Source: Lingula anatina | Taxonomy: Eukaryota > Animalia > Brachiopoda | DNA: 64,000 nucleotides | Reading direction: 5' to 3' | Assembly (NCBI GenBank): GCA_051362555.1 | Contig: CM120643.1 | Location: forward strand, 25,734,848 to 25,798,847 | Shown: positions 1 through 60,039 of the stretch, in pieces | Numbering within the stretch: position 1 is the first letter of the stretch | Layout: the number at the start of each line of letters is the position of its first letter | Program-made: the position numbers and the translations under genes | The notes under the pieces: model-generated | Told to the model about the DNA's origin: nothing | The model's database searches: none | What the model saw: only the letters and a program-made list of their open reading frames with translations

Positions 1-100
1 GGTTTCAGGCCAACAACTGGTTTACTGCTCTGTTCACAGAGATCTTCACTGACAGTAGTCTGGCCATCTCTCACACAAACTGCTGAGACAACCTGCTCTC
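1..100 (-). CDS. ADAMTS16/18: ADAMTS16/18-like exon 19 (cut by window edge), TSP1 repeat
   Basis: GEQVVSAVCVRDGQTTVSEDLCEQSSKPVVGLK; acceptor tacag in the expected phase 1. Confidence 0.9.
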
Positions 101-661
101 CTGTATTAACAAGTCATAAAATATATATATATATATATAACAGGCCTTATCACCTACTCTCCTATATTAATACGTAACAGACATGACAGGCCTTATTACT
201 CTTTTCACAGTCAATCTTTTTCTCAGATCTACATGATTATGAGCCTATAAAGCAAACTTGCAACCTAATGCTTCCTTGTTTAGAAATATTATTTCAATTG
301 AAGTGTTTGACATGAACATTACTTAAGCTTTAACTTGTTATTTTTATTTGTTACATACTTCAAATAGTAAAATAATACCTCTTTTGGCCAATGTGTCACT
401 GAATTTACAAAACTTATGTTGACAATAAATATTCAGTATATCAACCAAAATCAAAATCTGGATTTATGCTGGAATGAACCAACGAGATCCCTGACATAGA
501 TAGAGATTTTTGCCTATATCATAAGCCTGAGTAACAAGAATTCAGGAAATGTAAAGATTGCTCTATATCAGGGGTTCAAAAGGGGGGGGTCAATACCCAA
601 GCATCCTGATTTACAGATAAATCTGAATGGCTTTTGTATCTTATGCGAAAATAGCACCTAC

Positions 662-1447: not shown

Positions 1448-1721
1448 CTGAGGGAGAAAAATTAGTTGTTGAATAAGATTTACCTTAGGTAAACATAGAT
1501 GCATAGTTTTTTATATAAATTTAAAAAAAAAAAAAAAACACAAGATATGTAGTTTAAATCTTCAAAATTTCTATTCGGATTTTGGGACCTAAAGGACAAA
1601 CGTCTGAGTTTCATGTCCTGACTTGACCTAGTTAGGTGTTAGCATATTTAGGGCAACTTGACATTGAAAGTAATTGAAGTGGAGACAATTGACATTTGGC
1701 AGTGTGCTACATATGATAGCA

Positions 1722-1870
1722 ATGTGTTAGATGTGGCATGGCACTGTTAGATGTGACACAGTGTGCTAGATGTGACAGAAATGTGTTAGATGTGACAGAG
1801 ACTTGTATGGCATGGTATTGTTAGATGTGGCATAGTGTGTTAGATGTGAAACAGTATGTTAGACAGAAAT
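1722..1870. repeat. Degenerate ~20-bp minisatellite (core tgttagatgtg)
   Basis: About 7 imperfect copies in the intron after ADAMTS exon 16. Confidence 0.8.
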
Positions 1871-1915: not shown

Positions 1916-2039
1916 TATGAGGTCTGGCAGGTGTGGTAAAAGTCCCTATGACTTTATCACAAGTGTTGTTCTTTCCTCCACATATGCCACAGCTGTCTTC
2001 CACAGCTCCAGAGTCCAGAATACCATCACAACCAGGGAT
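1916..2039 (-). CDS. ADAMTS16/18: ADAMTS16/18-like exon 16, end of cysteine-rich domain and start of spacer
   Basis: IPGCDGILDSGAVEDSCGICGGKNNTCDKVIGTF; acceptor tttcccag (present in 12 tandem copies), donor gtaagt. Confidence 0.93.
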
Positions 2040-2633
2040 CTGGGAAATATATCACATATTACATAAAAACTTACATCACAACCAGGAATCTGGGAAATAT
2101 ATCACATATTACATAAAAACTTACATCACAACCAGGGATCTGGGAAATATATCACATATTACATAAAAACTTACATCACAACCAGGGATCTGGGAAATAT
2201 ATCACATATTACATAAAAACTTACATCACAACCAGGAATCTGGGAAATATATCACATATTACATAAAAACTTACATCACAACCAGGGATCTGGGAAATAT
2301 ATCACATATTACATAAAAACTTACATCACAACCAGGGATCTGGGAAATATATCACATATTACATAAAAACTTACATCACAACCAGGGATCTGGGAAATAT
2401 ATCACATATTACATAAAAACTTACATCACAACCAGGGATCTGGGAAATATATCACATATTACATAAAAACTTACATCACAACCAGGGATCTGGGAAATAT
2501 ATCACATATTACATAAAAACTTACATCACAACCAGGGATCTGGGAAATATATCACATATTACATAAAAACTTACATCACAACCAGGGATCTGGGAAATAT
2601 ATCACATATTACATGAAACTTACATCACAACCA
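2024..2633. repeat. 50-bp tandem repeat, 12 copies plus a partial, spanning the exon 16 splice acceptor
   Basis: Unit catcacaaccagggatctgggaaatatatcacatattacataaaaactta starts at 2024, 2074 ... 2574; copies nearly identical. Confidence 0.98.
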
Positions 2634-2845
2634 TATTGTAAAATAAGAAAAGTAAGCTTTGGCTTTCAAAAGTTATTTTCTATCACTGGATAAGTGTAAA
2701 TATTACTAATAATTAGGTATTTTATAAAAGTATATCTTTTCAACACCAAAATACACCACAACACATAAACAAATATATACACTTACCAAAGAATAATATT
2801 TTTTTAAAATTGTAAATACAACCTGAAAGACACATGTGTGAGAGG

Positions 2846-2988
2846 CTTACCCTGCATACCCCCTGTACACAGACCCCCCTGCTTACCCTGCATACCCCCT
2901 GTACACAGACCCCCCTGCTTACCCTGCATACCCCCTGTACACAGACACCCCTGCTTACCCTGCATACCCCCTGTACACAGACTCCCTG
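2846..2988. repeat. 36-bp tandem repeat, 4 copies, spanning the exon 15 splice donor
   Basis: Unit cttaccctgcataccccctgtacacagacccccctg; encodes GVCVQGVCRVSR in frame on the minus strand. Confidence 0.97.
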
Positions 2989-3089
2989 TGGGTTGTAGAG
3001 ACATTGAGTGCCATCCCCTGCCATGGTAGACATCTGATAGTAGAAGGAATAACGCTTGGCCTTGCAGTACAGCTTACACTGGTCTTCCT
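2959..3089 (-). CDS. ADAMTS16/18: ADAMTS16/18-like exon 15, cysteine-rich domain (first of four possible donors)
   Basis: EEDQCKLYCKAKRYSFYYQMSTMAGDGTQCLYNPQGVCVQGVCR; the donor gtaagc recurs at 36-nt intervals. Confidence 0.92.
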
Positions 3090-3454
3090 CTGAAGTGGTC
3101 ATCATGACATTTAGTTATTTGTAATGGCTAATAATAGGTATCTGAGGTATAGGTTCAACAATGCAGTAAAAACTGTTGAAATAATTCTCAAGCAATGCTG
3201 GCAACTGGTTATAGCTACAGTAACAAATATTTAATATTTTAGTCTTCAGACATGTGAGGACATTTTTTCTGTTGCATAGGTTAACGTGTAAATTTAACAC
3301 ATTCTTTTTTTTTTTGTTAAAAATCAGCAAAAATACTCATGAAAGGTGTGAGTAATTTGCATTTCAATGTTAAAGTATCATAAATATCTTATGAGGAACA
3401 AACTTTTAACCAAACAATTAGATTTGAGATACACTTTATTAAGAAGACATTTAC

Positions 3455-3563
3455 CTGGAACTTTTGTATATGGTTCCCATTTGTAGTACCATCCCCTGAA
3501 CTTGATGTAGTTACGTGAGGTACACTGTAATGCCCTATAGGTGGAGCCAATAGTTGGACACCT
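3455..3563 (-). CDS. ADAMTS16/18: ADAMTS16/18-like exon 14, cysteine-rich domain
   Basis: RCPTIGSTYRALQCTSRNYIKFRGWYYKWEPYTKVP; ttttcag / gtaaat. Confidence 0.95.
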
Positions 3564-4000
3564 CTGAAAAGACAAATTACATGTTCCTCATTACTTCTTA
3601 TAGGTGCACATTCATAATCATAACATTATCTAAATATCAAAAGGAGCAAATTATACCAATGTTCATAGCAATCTAGAAAAATATAGGAAATATGAAGGTG
3701 CAAAATGGTCATTTATATAAAATTCATATATTCTAAGTTATTTTGAAAACCATGTTCAAACACTCCTTTTATTCAAACCAATCAATTTTTGAAATCTATC
3801 AATTAGATCACTATAATATATTTCCTTACATGAACCCATGCAACTTAGAACCCATTCAGTTTAGAACCTTCGACCAATTTTCCTGAATATTACTTACAAA
3901 ACAATGTTATGAAGAAACATTTCATTAATTTCATTCGAACTTGGCAAGATATTACAATAATTTTCAAATAAAATTGATGTACCAGTATTCAGCCACTTAC

Positions 4001-7380: not shown

Positions 7381-7658
7381 CATATTTAACACTGTGAGGG
7401 TATAAGTAGTAACATTTTTATCGCCATGTGCATCTAGCATGTTTTTGTCTATAACCACAAGGGTTTCCAAATTCCTCAACTTTTCCTTATTCTTTCCATC
7501 TTTTACACGACGCTGATGCTGATGGTGACGATGACGTGCATATAATGCTGTTGATCTCTTATATCTTTGGTTTTTATGAATGAGATGATTTTCTTTATCA
7601 CCGTCATTATCTTTTTTGTCTTTTGGTTGCTGGAATGGCTGTAGTTTATTGTCTAAGG
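7381..7658 (-). CDS. ADAMTS16/18: ADAMTS16/18-like exon 5, furin site and start of catalytic domain
   Basis: RYKR furin motif, then RNLETLVVIDKNMLDAHGDKNVTTYTLTVLNM; tttacag / gtaaat. Confidence 0.95.
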
Positions 7659-11855: not shown

Positions 11856-12192
11856 CAGGTCAGCTTTACACCTGAGCACACTAATTTTTTTATCCCAATT
11901 GGTCTGCTGCTGTCCTCCGATTATTAATAACTTAAAAGTACTCAACCCTGAATGCGAATTGAGAATTTTAGGTGTGAAATATAAACACCTTGTAGTGTTG
12001 AAAAAGAATCTCCCCAACATCCCACCATGAGGATACTGGAACAAAGCATTCTCAGTAGTGTGAAACAACAGTGCACAGTTTGGGCAGCCTATGTTGTTCA
12101 TTGTGGCACTGGGGACTTGGGTAATTTAGCGATAAATTACCAAATTATTTGCCCTGCAAGTCAAAACATACAACTGCTACTTGTGTGTTCTC

Positions 12193-12420
12193 TACAATGT
12201 ATCATGTTGTGATGGCTACAATATATCATTTTGTGATGATTTCAATGTATCATGTTATGATGGCTACAATGTATCATGTTGTGATGGCTACAATGTATCA
12301 TGTTATGATGGCTATAATGTATCATGTAATGATGGCTACAATGTATCATGTTGTGATGGCTACAATATTTCGAGCTGTGATGGCTACAATGTATCATATT
12401 GAAGGAATTGCAATGTATCA
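12193..12420. repeat. 24-bp minisatellite (tacaatgtatcatgttgtgatggc), ~9 copies
   Basis: Direct tandem copies; the source of three overlapping repetitive ORFs. Confidence 0.95.
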
Positions 12421-45469: not shown

Positions 45470-48400
45470 CAAGTGAAGGAAAAACTATTACCACAGGTGA
45501 ATCCAAACAATTTGAGGGTTCTTTAGACTGAAGGTTTTTTGCAATGACTTTCTTCCTTTTATTCTTCCTTCTTTCTTTCTTTTTATTTAATTACAGCATA
45601 TAATCAATAATCTGGGCATTTATACATGTAGGTCCACAGGCTCATAGTTCAAGACTGAAACATTAAAAGACTTTTGAAAGCTAAGATTCCATGCACTGAT
45701 AGTTCATAAGTCCAAAACTACTATTCAGTAAAAAGTTAAAAGTCCAAAAGTTAATTCAATAGACACTGTTTTAAGACGATCACGGGTAGAAACTATTCCT
45801 GTTTTGCTTATTTTTCTAATGGCAGTTGCTATTTAACCTTTGGGACAATGAAACCTGAACAAATATTTAAAAAAAAAATCTGGACCAATGAACCTCTAAG
45901 AGTAAAATTAAAGCGAGCCATCAAACCAAGGAGCCAGTGGACTAATAATGAACACTCGGGCTATCTAGAAGCATCTCTCTGCTATCTGCACCAAAAACCA
46001 TCCAGGTGAGAGTTTATTTACCTTGAAGTTATCAAAGGACCACAGGTAAACCTGCTACCTGCATTAGATCCACACTGCTTAGTCTATCACCTGAGCCACC
46101 AGATTACCAGGATGATGATAAAAATAAAAAATACTAGACAAAACATGGAAACTTTTACAGCATGTTGCAACTGTAGCATTCCACCACAACATCATTATTA
46201 TGTGTCGCTGCATCTGTCTGGACAGATTGGCTGATGAGACCTGTTGCCATGGTAACTGGCCTAATCAACACGTTCAGGAAAACTTTCATGGCATCTCCTT
46301 GGTATAATTGAGATATTTGTACCTGTCTGCCATTCCATAGCCCTCCTCTCCCCCCCCCCTCCAATCCTCCCAATACATTGAGGGAAACCCTCAAAACATG
46401 TTTCCAACATAATTAAGATGCCTGAATCCACATATCTTCTCCACCCTCTTCCTTTTTTTATCTTCTGGCACATAAATTTCATAGTATTCTGTGATCATGC
46501 ACTATAAAATCAACTTCAGTAAGGGATCCCATAACTTTTCACTCTCTTGATCATTGTGATGAATATATATTACCTGATCAAGCAACTGATGACAACTAAT
46601 TTTGTCACTTAATTAATACTACATATTTATGAATGGATTATGGCCTTTATACTTTAAAATGCAGATTCAAAACTGTTGCCATTGCAGATTTTACTCTATA
46701 ATCTGCAAAAACAAGAGTTGTGAAAATATGTATTTCTCCTGGTTATTTCTGCTGTATAGGAAAATATCGACAAATGGAATAAATTGACATGGAATATAAA
46801 AGAATTATATATTTTCATCCACCTTTTTTATTTATAAAAAAAGTTTATTCAAGTGACTACTTAAATAAGCAGTTAAAATATATGCAAGTATATCAGGCAA
46901 AAAAAAAAAAAAAAAAAAAAAAAAACAGTCTCATAGCTTATCTTCTTCTTAAACTTCAGAATCTGTTTTATATGCGATTTCAAATTAAAAGTCTCTAGTC
47001 ATTTTCATTAACTACAACAAAATACCATATAAAAAAATCTATTGCATACTCTCACCCAAATCAATATATTTCACATTAATCTTTTCTAAACAAGGTATCT
47101 CCCACTATGTGTAAACTATTCAGTTTATCTTTCAAAAGCCAATGCATTTCTAACCTTCAGTATGGAATCCACTCCCCACAGAAACAGAATACACAGTTTT
47201 ACACAGGCAATCTTCCTGCATCCTCGGCTTACCCAGCACATGGTGTGTGGACCAGAGTGTCTGCTCTGCTTGCTAAGAACTCTCCCCCAGCAAACTACTA
47301 CTCCCTAATCACTAAACACGATACAGCAGGGAAAAAGCACTGCTTACTAAATAAGAGCCAATTAACAATCCAGGTTTCTGGGCTGTCAATAATTCATCAA
47401 TGGCCAACACACTGGACAGTGAAAAGGAATTATGTGGCATTCATCTTGCCAGGCTGATGAAGTCTCATTCTAGGCCATGACTCTGGATAGTGATAAAGTG
47501 GAGCTCTGCTACCATAATGTATACACACAAAAACATGCCATTTTCAAGACAGTTCCATGAATTGGATTGGTTAGCTTCTTCTTGTCCAGGTCCTATCCCA
47601 GCAAGGTATTCAATGTATTCAATGTATTCAATGTACCACTGCCCTTGAGAACAGTACAATAAGAATAGTATTTATAAAGCATACACCATCACTACAAACC
47701 ACTCACTTTGTCTTTCTTACCTTTTAAAAAAGGTCTTTTGCCTAAAAATAATTATTATTATTACTGTTATTAGTGATAATGAGAAGTTAATGAAAGTAAA
47801 ATTAGTGCTTTGAAATAAGCAATGAAATATGATATGAAAAAATAGCTTCTATAACTTTTGTTGAAAAGAATTTTAAGTAGTGCGGGCATTGTCACTGGCA
47901 GATCAGAACATCTAGAGGTATTCGGGAGGGGGGGGAGAAGGGGCATTTTGCAACATTTTGCACTGTCAAGTACATGAACCATGCATTTTTCTGTAGGACC
48001 CATGACCAGTGTATGTTTTTTTTTTTTGTTTTTTTTTACCATTTTGGTATAGTAAACCTGTAGGTTGAAGTGGAAATTTTGTTTCAGGTTAAGGGGTCCA
48101 AACCCCTCAGGTATCCCCCAGAACCATTATTTATATTTTCACTAAAGAACATCCACCTGAATCAGTAAGTACACTTTGCTGATGCTTTTTATCTTTTTAT
48201 TTTTTGCAAATACGTACTTAGTTACCTTCAATTTCTTATACTACTTATCAACGTCTGCATCTTTATCTTTTATTGCTTCCTTTTATCAATAATCATATTA
48301 GTATACATACAAGGGGGAATTCTTCAAATAATGTAAAAATAAAATAACCTGCATACCTGAACCCTTTGTTTGTCACAACACAAAACATTTCATGAGCCCC

Positions 48401-56003: not shown

Positions 56004-56851
56004 CTAAAAATAAAAGCCTTGCGTACACAATGATAACATTTACATGAACCATACTAATGATATGGAATAATATAAAACATTGAAAATATGGAATGAAATA
56101 TCCATGGTCTAGTGGCATAAAGGAAAATAATCCATACTTTTTTACAGGTAAATTGGACTTTTTAAGGGAAGTTAAACAGAAAAAATGCAACCGCACATGT
56201 TGCATACAGTTTTTAAACTCAACAATATTGGTATTATTTTACATGAAACTCTTCCCTCAAAACCTTCCAAAGGACAGAAGTTCAATGTTTTTTTTTTTTT
56301 TTAATCAGTAGCAAATAAATATATAATCTTACATTTTTACATTTTTTGACTTATGAATAGCACACAAACACCCACACACACACACACACACATTTACATA
56401 CTTTCTCTCTCAGTAAAAAAAAGGTTGTACAGTTACAGTAGTGCATAAACGGGTAGAGATTGACAGTTCATGTTGTTAACATTACAATTGAATTCTAAGA
56501 GATATATCATCAGCTGGTTGCTTGTCAATTAAGTTGTAATATGCGATCAATATTTTCCCATTTTCTTTTAACATGTTGTTGTTTTTGGTCGGTATACATA
56601 TATAAAGAATATAAACAAATATTTCTATAATAATTAACGTATTGTCTAGTTCCTTCCCATGTTGGGATATCTGTTTTCGTTCTACATAGACTAATATATT
56701 TCTTAATTATTAAGATAAGTAGATAAAAACCTTTTATGTCATATGATTGCACAAGCCCGCAGAAGTTCAATGTTAGTAATATTGGTATTGAACTCTTTCC
56801 TCAAAACCTCCCCAAGGACCAAGGAGAGATACAGGAAGAAAGGAGACTTAC

Positions 56852-56941
56852 CAAGTGCCCATGACTGATCCACACCAGGTGTTACCCTGCAGGGGTCCTG
56901 ATACTTCTGCAGCAATGGATGTGTGTAAAATACTCGGTCAT
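56852..56941 (-). CDS. SMPD3: SMPD3-like coding exon 4
   Basis: DDRVFYTHPLLQKYQDPCRVTPGVDQSWALG; ttccag / gtaagt. Confidence 0.94.
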
Positions 56942-57064
56942 CTGGAAGCAATGAAACCATTATAGCCATGCACCCATTCAGGATGGGATAAAAAGAAACA
57001 ATTTATTATTTTTTGCCCCTTTCTGGTGAGTACATAATTTTTAAAATTCATATCACACAGGCAT

Positions 57065-57065
<1 letters not shown>

Positions 57066-57130
<65 letters not shown>
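57066..57130. repeat. (CA)n microsatellite
   Basis: Pure CA run in an SMPD3 intron. Confidence 0.95.
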
Positions 57131-57132
<2 letters not shown>

Positions 57133-57161
57133 TGGTAAAGTTGATGTCACCAGGGGAAGAT

Positions 57162-57337
57162 CCAGGGACATTTTCTGGCAGTCTTCCAAATTATCTTTGT
57201 TGATTCATCCTTCATTTTTGACCATCTTCCGACAGAAAAATTTGATGACCTTCCATGTATACTTGAAAAAATTTGACCGTCTGCTGGAAGACCCAGAAGA
57301 TGGCCTCCATCTGCCTCCAGTCACAGTAATTTCTATG
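57162..57337. mobile_element. Degenerate interspersed repeat, same family as 4232-4390
   Basis: Direct similarity to the copy in the ADAMTS intron, same orientation. Confidence 0.75.
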
Positions 57338-57349
57338 TATAGTACATAC

Positions 57350-57490
57350 CAGTTGACATGTTGTCAAAGTTGAGGTCACCACACAGCAGGTCAAACAGGA
57401 TCCTTTCCTCTGGATTCCTGGTCTTCAGAATGAACTCCTCTATCCACTGCAGTGTGTCACTGAGCTGCTGAGATCTGATGTCTTTTGCAC
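57350..57490 (-). CDS. SMPD3: SMPD3-like coding exon 3
   Basis: IRSQQLSDTLQWIEEF..LFDLLCGDLNFDNMS (catalytic GDxN motif); AAG acceptor, gtatgt donor. Confidence 0.93.
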
Positions 57491-57555
57491 CTTGATTTCA
57501 ATACAATTCATTTTAAAATTTCCTAGATTAACAACTGAATACATATGATCATGAC

Positions 57556-57640
57556 CATCATCATAATTATGAGATTAAGTGTTCTGCTGTTGGACAAAGG
57601 CCTCAGCATGCTTCTTCCTGTTCATCTGTCTTGGGCTTCA
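57556..57640 (-). mobile_element. Possible 3' end fragment of an RTE-type LINE/SINE
   Basis: Minus strand reads gaggcctttgtccaacagcagaaca...atgatgatg, resembling RTE 3' ends with a (TGA)n tail. Confidence 0.35.
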
Positions 57641-57804
57641 GTTATATAATACACAATATGATTTTAACAATGTACATTCTCCCCAAAAAGTTTAATTAAA
57701 GGAAAAACTGAAGGGTTTGTTTTATTTCTGACGTTGTTTATGTACTAATTAATCTATCAATTAATGACAAATCAATTAATATCAATTAATGAAAAGTGCC
57801 ACAC

Positions 57805-57880
57805 CTTGAGAGGCCTGGGTATGAGTGGTTGCTATATATCCTGCAAATTTCTGCCCTTCTGCCGATTTCCCAATGTTTAC
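57805..57880 (-). CDS. SMPD3: SMPD3-like coding exon 2
   Basis: VNIGKSAEGQKFAGYIATTHTQASQ (conserved TH); ttctag / gtgtgg. Confidence 0.92.
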
Positions 57881-58328
57881 CTAGAATTACATAACACAGT
57901 TCTGACAATTAAATCTGATCAGTAAATAATCACAACACTTAAACAGCCATAAGAATATTAACTGATTAGCCTATATATGTCTTAAATTTGATAACAGAAA
58001 ATTAAGGAATACTGTTACAGTACTAAAATTTATGCCAGAGAAAATTTCTGCTTGTCACGAACAAGATCTAGCTCAAGTGAAATAACAATAGATACACATA
58101 AAAAGCAAAGAAAGCATTTTCTTTCATTCAATCTATTTTCACATGCAGGTTAATCCATGCAAGTATTGGTTAATTTTAATAAAAATTCTGGATCCTTAGT
58201 CTACACACTTATGGAACAAACCGACACAACTTTAAAGAGTTTAAGTGGGAGATCAGAGATTATATATATATTGCTACATAATTATGTAGCACAAAATCTA
58301 AAACTGCATATTAGTAAACTGCCAGTAC

Positions 58329-59669
58329 CTTCACCATTAGTAATCCTTTAGAAGCCAGCCTATCCACCCGTATACACTGCTGAAAACACTTAAACTCTGC
58401 CTCCTCTATGGGGTACATACTGGCCAAAAGAAGTCCACTATTTAGCACCGATTGACCTCTTCTAAAGTACACCCCAACATCATGAACAATGTAGGGGAAG
58501 TGTTGGTGGAGTTTCTTTACTAGGGTATGGCTAGCTCTTCTATCAAAAACTTCCTGAAGACACAGAAAGTCCAAGTCTGCTGGGAAGTGGGTTGATACAA
58601 AGCATTTGGGGTCACTGTGACATCTCGGGTCACTGTGTTTTGTGTCAGGTTTGTGAGTTCCTAAATCATGTGATAAATTAGACCTACTGTTATCGGTCAA
58701 TTCTTGAATTTCAGAACTGTCATCAATATTCTCAATTTGGCAAATTGTGTGGCCCACTGCTACATCAGGCAATTCTTTTTTGGTTATTGTTTTATCTGTT
58801 AATTCATTACTTTTCATTTTATCATTTATTGTACCTCTATGACAATACTGTGCAGAATTGTCAGATGTCTCTGACAATATACCATATCCTTCAGAATTAA
58901 CTCTTTGGGGGGTTTGTTCTCCTATGTCACTGTTAAGTAGAACTGAATTCTCAGTATCATTCTTTGAAAGATTTTCTATTATTCTACTCCCAATTGTTTT
59001 AGCCCGCCATTGTGTATTAGAAAGGTTATTAATTCTGGCGATGAATTCTGGCATAAGGCATACGTTTGCTGTGGCAACAGTAAATCTTCTCTCAAACCTT
59101 CTCTGTGTTGTGCCCTGGTTTTTTGTGATAACATCGTCATGCGTGCACCTGCAAGCAGAGCTGGAAGGCTGTGGTAGAAAAGGCTCATGCACTTTTACCG
59201 ATTTTAGATCACTTTGGGATACATCAATACTGTTAGGAGGATTATCACAGTTGGCAGCCATTTCTAAATTTGATAATGAAGATTTTCCTTGTGACACTCT
59301 AATTCTGTCAGCATCATTATGGACATCAATAGCATCTTGCTCATTAAAGTCATGCACTGAACTATGACTAGAATACCTAAGTGAACTACGACACTTTTGC
59401 GTGGGCACCCATATCAACAATCCCAGCATGCATAGGGGTAAGGTGATAACAATGAAAGCAAGCAAAACTGGGGCAGCAAATGTTATGATGATGTAGTGTT
59501 CATAACATGGTTCTTCCCAACCTCTGCGACTCCTCTCTCGCGAGGTCGATATGAAGAGAGACAGGAGTTTGTTGGTGAACCAGTATGTGGGATAGATCAT
59601 GCCCCAGGAGATGTTGTACAGCACTCCTAAACATATGGAGTTGTGTGTTCGCTGGGAAGGGGGCAACAT
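58329..59669 (-). CDS. SMPD3: Neutral sphingomyelinase 2 (SMPD3)-like, large first coding exon
   Basis: MLPPSQRTHNSICLGVLYNISWGMIYPTYW resembles the nSMase2 N-terminus. Two hydrophobic segments, ATANVCLMPEFIARINNLSNT, FPADLDFLCLQEVFDRRA, NSGLLLAS, DRLASKG. Acceptor at 59685-59686, donor AAG|gtactg. Confidence 0.96.
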
Positions 59670-60039
59670 GCTTCCTTGCTGCACCTGGAACAATAAAGGG
59701 AATTGTCATTTTCATTTTTGAAATTAATAATTAAAGAATATCACTTCAGGCCCAAATAACCATTTGATGACCCCCAGACACTTGTTATCCTACTGGCATT
59801 GTCCACTTTTAAGTATTAGTCAAAGATAGCATTGGTGCCAAAGATAATTGTTTGGGGTCAGATTTGGAAAATCAGGTACATACAGTCAGTATACCAATAT
59901 ATGTATACACACAATCTTGAAAGGTTTTTATTATCCACTGTTGTAATCATCTTTTTATATCACACGGTCAAAAAACAAATGTAGCAGTAAACATGAATAG
60001 AAATACTAGAAGCACAGGACTAGAGAAGGAAAATCCAGG

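What the first reader, a model, noticed from the sequence alone, without database searches (positions are those of the whole stretch)
2024..2988. Both ends of one intron independently amplified: candidate combinatorial splice-site array
Seen: the two most homogeneous minisatellites in the window sit exactly on the 5' and 3' splice sites of the same phase-0 intron (intron 15). Their units are unrelated, and both give frame-preserving, Cys-containing additions (12 aa and 5 aa). A third, degenerate minisatellite follows exon 16 (1722-1870). Inference: 4 donors times variable microexon number could diversify one junction of the cysteine-rich domain, or this may capture intron/microexon birth by tandem duplication. 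It may equally be neutral slippage tolerated only because frame is preserved.
Basis: inference. Interest (0 to 1): 0.8.

Follow-up and report, generated by a model that had tools for sequence, protein, structure and literature searches.

The report
Double-ended splice-site minisatellite in ADAMTS intron
Both ends of one intron in an animal ADAMTS protease gene have been copied in tandem (4 splice donors, 12 splice acceptors), but the few RNA reads that cross it all join the two true exon ends, so it is likely a tolerated, variable repeat of a kind already known from lancelet and human genes.

Summary
Intron 15 (phase 0) of an ADAMTS16/18-like gene carries a 36-bp x 3.9 array over its donor and a 50-bp x 12.2 array over its acceptor. 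One correction: the 50-bp unit is not frame-preserving by itself; only its 15-nt AG..GT piece is, and read-through hits a stop. The RNA at hand shows no combinatorial use. In run X15, 6 of 6 reads crossing the exon-16 start and 4 of 4 crossing the exon-15 end (probably overlapping sets) join donor 1 to the last acceptor; one X16 read also ends at donor 1. Depth is low, so alternative use up to about 35-50% is not excluded. All 123 proteins retrieved keep the C-x3-GCD spacing. Other DNA samples carry the arrays, apparently at other copy numbers. A third, older boundary duplication sits at exon 19. This fits amphioxus 'mirage' and human F7-type minisatellites, which the scan has noted many times on other genomes. 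Small extras: both ends of one intron are hit, and there is a hint that the copies exchange sequence with the coding exon.

The parts
2959..3089 (-). Exon 15 of the ADAMTS16/18-like gene (cysteine-rich region, ends ...VCVQGVCR, phase 0); its donor at 2958 is the one used
   Evidence: RNA reads stop at 2959
2845..2986 (-). Donor minisatellite, 36 bp x 3.9; three extra donors at 2922, 2886, 2850; each extra unit is an open 12 codons with 2 Cys
   Evidence: no RNA depth at 2900-2947 in X15 and X16; array pieces also in DNA runs X2 and X4
2983..2983 (-). Synonymous exon site inside the duplicated part; one allele matches copies 3 and 4; it forms all four combinations with site 2989 across haplotypes (hint of copy-to-exon exchange)
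   Evidence: tables 3 and 8
2024..2633 (-). Acceptor minisatellite, 50 bp x 12.2; 12 acceptors, of which the last (2040) is used
   Evidence: RNA; collapsed 80-nt unit contig in DNA run X2
2075..2589 (-). Eleven AG-15 nt-GTAAGT pseudo-microexons (IPGCD) separated by 35-nt spacers without a UGC motif
   Evidence: no RNA depth at 2044-2120; no microexon letters in the loose ends
2623..2633 (-). 11-nt microhomology (same letters as 2024-2034 in exon 16) at the outer edge of the acceptor array, running into a GTAAGT; likely seed of the first duplication and source of the internal donors
   Evidence: sequence; seeding role inferred
1916..2039 (-). Exon 16 (starts IPGCDGILDS)
   Evidence: P0001-P0004; RNA depth starts in the bin beginning at 1916
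1703..1849 (.). Degenerate 19-20/39-bp minisatellite in intron 16, not built from a splice site
91..196 (-). Older, degenerate duplication of the exon-19 acceptor (copy at about 152-196; its AG lies 61 nt upstream of the real one)
   Evidence: score 47.5, reached by 2 of 2000 shuffles; third best of 36 sites in a 30-mer test (34 against at most 25.5 for the other 33)

Best explanation
Two tandem repeats, likely independent in origin, have copied the donor and the acceptor of intron 15 of an ADAMTS16/18-like gene, and the RNA reads that cross the intron join the outermost donor to the outermost acceptor, so both arrays are spliced out and are likely near-neutral. Shown: the arrays, the canonical junction in the reads at hand, the arrays in other DNA samples. 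Inferred: the 50-bp array began by microhomology-driven duplication between an 11-nt intronic stretch and the same 11 nt in exon 16, which also supplied the GTAAGT that makes each copy look like a microexon. The 36-bp unit looks like a 35-bp duplication plus one G slipped into a G-run. Copy number then drifts by slippage or unequal exchange. The first donor likely wins by the upstream-first choice described for F7. The last acceptor likely wins because it alone opens a normal 124-nt exon, while the others open 15-nt exons inside 35-nt spacers.
For: RNA: in X15, 6 of 6 reads crossing the exon-16 start stop at 2040 and continue into the exon-15 end (bin depth 5.44 = 6 x 29/32). In X15, 4 of 4 reads crossing the exon-15 end stop at 2959 and continue as IPGCD-GILDS with no microexon, and one X16 read ends there too (depths 2.17 and 0.54 match). 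The X15 reads carry exon alleles at 2983/2989/3007 that also stand in exon-anchored DNA contigs, so they come from donor 1 and not a later copy. Proteins: 4 of 4 database proteins of this gene use the canonical junction; 123 of 123 retrieved keep C-x3-GCD, as does ADAMTS13. DNA: X2 has a 47-nt donor-array contig at depth 448 against flanks of 58-118, where the window allele predicts at most 2-fold for so long a piece, so its array looks longer. X4's summed depth (72.8 against 32-40) suggests a shorter one. The X2 acceptor unit (969 against 104-118) suggests about 9-10 copies against 12. A third boundary duplication exists in the gene. Precedent: mirages do not disturb splicing and vary in length (PMC3087553, PMC3902484, passages); F7 uses only the first donor (PMC1557585, abstract and introduction).
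Against: Only about 7 informative reads, from 2 samples of one study; mates may overlap, so as few as about 4 molecules. The upper bound on alternative use is about 35% for 7 reads and about 50% for 4. Tissues are unknown, and only about 6% of each of these runs was read. The RNA donors' introns were not seen, so they may lack or differ in the arrays (X15's exon haplotype equals that of X2, which carries both). Both possible additions are in frame, and both variants among the copies' coding-like parts are synonymous (chance about 0.05). In human CBS and 6-16, two pseudo-donors are used besides the true one (PMC1557585 introduction). Contig depth is only a rough guide to copy number, as the tool itself warns.
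Confidence: 0.8

Rival explanations
1. Leaky but unselected: most mRNA is canonical, but donors 2-4 or single microexons are used at a few percent, as in human CBS intron 13, giving in-frame products with extra cysteines that escape decay and are tolerated as noise or slightly harmful.
For: All four donors share the same 9-mer; the additions are open in frame; CBS and 6-16 use two pseudo-donors (PMC1557585 introduction); RNA depth cannot exclude up to 35-50%.
Against: No alternative junction among about 7 reads or in 4 of 4 database proteins; the 35-nt spacers have no UGC.
Confidence: 0.14
2. Functional combinatorial array: 4 or more donors times a variable number of IPGCD microexons diversify the cysteine-rich region in some tissue, with a repertoire set by repeat genotype.
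For: Both ends of one phase-0 intron, both additions in frame; the donor unit reaches 36 nt only through an extra G; 2 of 2 copy variants are synonymous (P about 0.05); the junction lies between the Adt-1-like and ADAMTS_CR_3 Pfam matches, near the CA/CB border by recalled ADAMTS13 numbering, where an insert might fit.
Against: No RNA support; spacing invariant in 123 of 123 proteins; the CB subdomain is highly conserved and held by disulfides (PMC4885070 section 3.6), so extra Cys would likely mispair; copy number seems to differ between samples; a homopolymer slip also marks the non-coding part of the acceptor array; adjacent microexons would need 35-nt introns.
Confidence: 0.04
3. Assembly artefact: the arrays exist only in the window's assembly.
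For: Near-identical copies; no long read across either array was seen.
Against: Repeat-junction contigs at several times flank depth occur in DNA runs X2 (both arrays) and X4 (donor array) of two other studies; the copies hold internal variants. Only the exact copy number in the window could be off.
Confidence: 0.02

Closest known systems
Amphioxus 'mirage' minisatellites (globins BflGb6 and BflGb9, Adh3, troponin C, PGBD5); PMC3087553 and PMC3902484, passages read
   Same: Tandem copies of an intron/exon boundary, both 5' and 3' boundaries, AG/GT kept, length differs between haplotypes (BflGb6: 6 and 3 units), normal splicing, several per gene (PGBD5, Adh3), proposed as raw material for intron gain.
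   Different: Here both ends of the same intron are amplified with unrelated units, and the acceptor copies carry their own GTAAGT, forming AG-15 nt-GT cassettes. I found no such case in four paper searches, but the Adh3 paper was not held.
Human F7 IVS7 37-bp VNTR and related donor-spanning minisatellites (LMNB2, PDGF, CBS intron 13, 6-16); PMC1557585, abstract and introduction read
   Same: First unit spans the exon/intron boundary, identical downstream pseudo-donors about 36-37 nt apart, polymorphic copy number, most upstream donor used.
   Different: The F7 unit holds only 4 exonic nt and is not a multiple of 3; here 24-28 of 36 nt are exon-derived and in frame, and an acceptor array faces it.
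Human CBS 844ins68; PMC2630376, passages read
   Same: Duplicated intron/exon junction at an acceptor; the distal site is favoured and normal mRNA is made.
   Different: A single 68-bp duplication, not a 12-copy array.

Membership tests
'Mirage' / boundary-spanning minisatellite | Tandem unit spans an exon-intron boundary | tested here: met
   (donor 15: 3 extra copies; acceptor 16: 11 extra copies)
'Mirage' / boundary-spanning minisatellite | Copies keep AG/GT splice signals | tested here: met
'Mirage' / boundary-spanning minisatellite | Length differs between haplotypes | tested here: met
   Rough, from contig depth: X2 donor array longer, X4 shorter, X2 acceptor about 9-10 units (calibrated); no long reads
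'Mirage' / boundary-spanning minisatellite | Regular splicing is kept | tested here: met
   about 7 of 7 junction reads canonical; rare isoforms not excluded
'Mirage' / boundary-spanning minisatellite | Somatic instability | not testable with these tools
   needs single-molecule data from tissues of one animal
F7 IVS7-type donor VNTR | Only the most upstream of identical donors is used | tested here: met
   5 of 5 reads end at 2959; zero depth at 2900-2947
F7 IVS7-type donor VNTR | Pseudo-donors work when the authentic donor is mutated | not testable with these tools
   needs a minigene
Regulated (SRRM3/4-type) microexon | 3-27 nt, frame-preserving, AG..GT | tested here: met
   15 nt; size range from the abstract listing of 10.64898/2026.05.02.722430
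Regulated (SRRM3/4-type) microexon | UGC between branch point and AG (in 74-79% of cases, not strictly needed) | tested here: not met
   no TGC in the 35-nt spacer; figures from 10.1101/2024.09.17.613571, passages
Regulated (SRRM3/4-type) microexon | Included in mRNA of some tissue | tested here: inconclusive
   0 of 6 reads at the exon-16 start and 0 of 4 at the exon-15 end show it (X15); tissues unknown
Regulated (SRRM3/4-type) microexon | Conserved across species | tested here: not met
   123 of 123 proteins lack any insert at this point; close relatives of the organism were not among the hits
Intron gain by tandem genomic duplication | A new intron is spliced from the duplicated segment | tested here: not met
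   the arrays leave with the old intron 15

The most novel reading that the evidence does not exclude
A splice-site VNTR on both ends of one intron acts as a genotype-scaled isoform generator: in some tissue (for example neurons with Srrm234), later donors and IPGCD microexons are combined in frame, so the animal's repeat genotype sets a family of ADAMTS variants with extra cysteines at the CA/CB border, while the intronic copies also rewrite the coding exon by gene conversion.
Probability: 0.05. Interest if true: 0.75.

Novelty: new member of a known kind. Interest (0 to 1): 0.25.

Why it matters
As it stands it is one more tolerated splice-site minisatellite. Its modest value is as a natural test bed: 4 identical donors and 12 identical acceptors in one intron, both in-frame-capable so that decay cannot hide mis-splicing, and copy number that seems to vary between animals. 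It could test upstream-first donor choice and exon definition in one minigene. It also shows how microexon-shaped cassettes can appear in one step from a microhomology. The four-combination pattern at 2983/2989 hints that intronic copies can feed changes back into a coding exon. If regulated use were found, it would be a new way to make isoform diversity.

Tried and rejected
No RNA holder was listed by the index; RNA came from same-species raw-read runs, of which 4 of 9 were laid (X12, X15, X16, X18), and 2 of the 11 DNA rows (X2, X4). X12 (8 reads, exon 17 only) and X18 (one read inside exon 16) did not cross the junction. The stretches laid (1180-2120 and 2900-3619) held only about two units of each array, so no joint across the whole intron and no full copy number could be read; two loose-end rows and 20 contig rows were not shown. 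I considered that the X15 reads used donor 3 or 4, because their last 31 letters are 2 changes from either; rejected, since they continue into unique exon-15 sequence and DNA contigs show the same letters as exon alleles. That the degenerate minisatellite derives from the exon-16 donor: no good alignment. A PDB search with exon 15 alone gave only chance hits. Pfam found nothing for five frames at 56.7-59.7 kb. The Adh3 mirage paper was not held and is known to me only through citing papers; supplements of the globin and PGBD5 papers were not read and may show double-ended cases. No structure was predicted. Searches of earlier findings by place and by sequence returned nothing.

Full report
Gene. 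The minus strand of window 1-33860 holds 19 coding exons of a secreted ADAMTS metalloprotease: exon translations match Reprolysin, ADAMTS_CR, TSP1 and spacer models, and four database proteins of this gene (P0001-P0004) map along it. They differ from the window by a short indel, so they come from another haplotype. The exon model gives 932 of 941 residues identical to P0004 and makes the intron in question intron 15, phase 0, 919 nt; the shortest of the 18 introns is 200 nt (the script misplaced the exon-16 donor, which P0004 and RNA depth put at 1916).

Observation. TRF finds 2845-2986 (36 bp x 3.9) and 2024-2633 (50 bp x 12.2), both 98% matches, the most homogeneous minisatellites in the window. 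The first gives four AGG|GTAAGC donors; each extra unit is an open VSRGVCVQGVCR. The second gives 12 acceptors, 11 followed by IPGCD and GTAAGT. The 50-bp unit is not frame-preserving by itself: all 11 upstream acceptors meet a stop after 22 or 47 codons unless the inner donor is used, and neighbouring cassettes are 35 nt apart with no TGC.

Origin (inferred from sequence). The acceptor array begins with 11 nt that recur in exon 16 (2623-2633 and 2024-2034), and in the intron these 11 nt run into GTAAGT. One microhomology-mediated duplication therefore explains both the array and its microexon look. The donor unit equals a 35-nt exon-end duplication plus one G in a G-run; the acceptor array also shows a T-run slip between its first and later units, so such slips need no selection. 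The two units are unrelated. Any duplication across a splice site leaves the outermost copy as the intact exon end, so the array is harmless if outer sites are chosen, whatever the frame.

RNA. Four of nine same-species RNA runs were laid. In X15, 6 of 6 reads that cross the exon-16 start stop at 2040 and go on into the exon-15 end; 4 of 4 that cross the exon-15 end stop at 2959 and go on as IPGCDGILDS. The two sets come from the same records and probably overlap. One X16 read ends at 2959, judged from bin depth. Depth is zero at 2900-2947 and 2044-2120. The X15 reads differ from the window at 2983, 2989 and 3007, all synonymous and present in exon-anchored DNA contigs, so they use donor 1. 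X12 and X18 did not cross the junction. With 7 reads the one-sided 95% bound on alternative use is 35%; if mates overlap it is about 50%. Tissues are unknown, and the RNA donors' introns were not seen.

Protein constraint. All 4 proteins of this gene use the canonical junction, and 123 of 123 proteins retrieved keep exactly three residues between the cysteine and GCD, as does ADAMTS13 in 6qig. The CB subdomain is described as highly conserved and held by two disulfides (PMC4885070, section 3.6 read). That the junction lies at the CA/CB border rests on recalled ADAMTS13 numbering.

DNA. Run X2 has an 80-nt unit contig of the acceptor array at depth 969 against flanks of 104-118, about 9-10 copies by the simulation, against 12 here. 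Its donor-array contigs reach 448, 206 and 194 against 58-118; the window allele predicts at most 2-fold for a piece of 47 nt, so X2's array looks longer. X4's summed depth, 72.8 against 32-40, suggests a shorter one. The tool warns that depth is no copy number, so this is rough, but it shows the arrays are real in other samples and likely variable. Haplotypes read show all four combinations of sites 2983 and 2989, six bases apart (window; X4 records 11 and 12; X2 and X15), while 2989 and 3007 go together. Site 2983 lies inside the duplicated part, and one of its alleles is the letter of copies 3 and 4. Copy-to-exon conversion is a likely cause; recurrent mutation in a G-run or a crossover is not excluded, and X4's two contigs sum to only half its flank depth.

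Chance. Placed at random, two such units hit both ends of one intron with P about 5e-5 in the gene or 1e-3 locally. But a third, older duplication sits on the exon-19 acceptor (2 of 2000 shuffles), so 3 of 36 splice sites are hit; given that, a double-ended intron has P about 0.09. This rate comes from the same gene, and the genome-wide test could not be run.

These are weak against the RNA and conservation results but keep low-level use open.

Known kinds. Amphioxus mirages are tandem copies of 5' or 3' boundaries that vary in length and leave splicing normal (PMC3087553, six passages; PMC3902484, passages). Human F7 IVS7 has a 37-bp donor VNTR where only the first donor is used (PMC1557585, abstract and introduction); CBS 844ins68 is the single-copy acceptor case (PMC2630376, passages). 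The name 'mirage' reached me through earlier scan notes and the listing, and I checked it in those papers. The scan has noted 13 such arrays on other genomes; these are unchecked AI notes and are not counted as support. I found no paper on both ends of one intron, but the Adh3 paper was not held and supplements were not read.

Verdict. Real, a new member of a known kind, most likely near-neutral (0.8). Interest 0.25: the double-ended layout and the hint of exchange with the exon are small extras; a functional combinatorial array has about 0.05.

Noticed in passing
window 91-196, minus strand: Older degenerate duplication of the exon-19 acceptor of the same gene; the copy's AG lies 61 nt upstream and is followed by 8 nt and a GT; an (AT)n run has grown between the copies.
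   Followed up: partly
window 2983 and 2989: Four-combination pattern of two synonymous exon sites 6 bp apart at the edge of the donor array, across the window, X2/X15 and two X4 contigs; suggests exchange between intronic copies and the exon.
   Followed up: partly
window 47155-47241, minus strand: Alternative first coding exon used by P0002 (29 of 29 residues identical), so the ADAMTS gene reaches at least 47 kb into the window.
   Followed up: partly
window 1703-1849: Degenerate intronic minisatellite; three X18 RNA reads lay on it on the opposite strand at 90-95% likeness, probably from a related repeat elsewhere.
   Followed up: partly
window 12192-12401: 24-bp x 8.8 minisatellite (84% matches) deep in intron 3, not on a splice site: a counter-example showing that repeats here also arise away from boundaries.
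   Followed up: no
window about 56700-59700, minus strand: Exon-like frames, one ending ...DLLCGDLNFDNMS, recall a neutral sphingomyelinase-type phosphodiesterase (motif recalled; Pfam gave no match for five frames).
   Followed up: partly
window about 7520-7545: His/Arg-rich stretch after the furin-like site differs by a 2-residue indel between the window and P0001-P0004.
   Followed up: no
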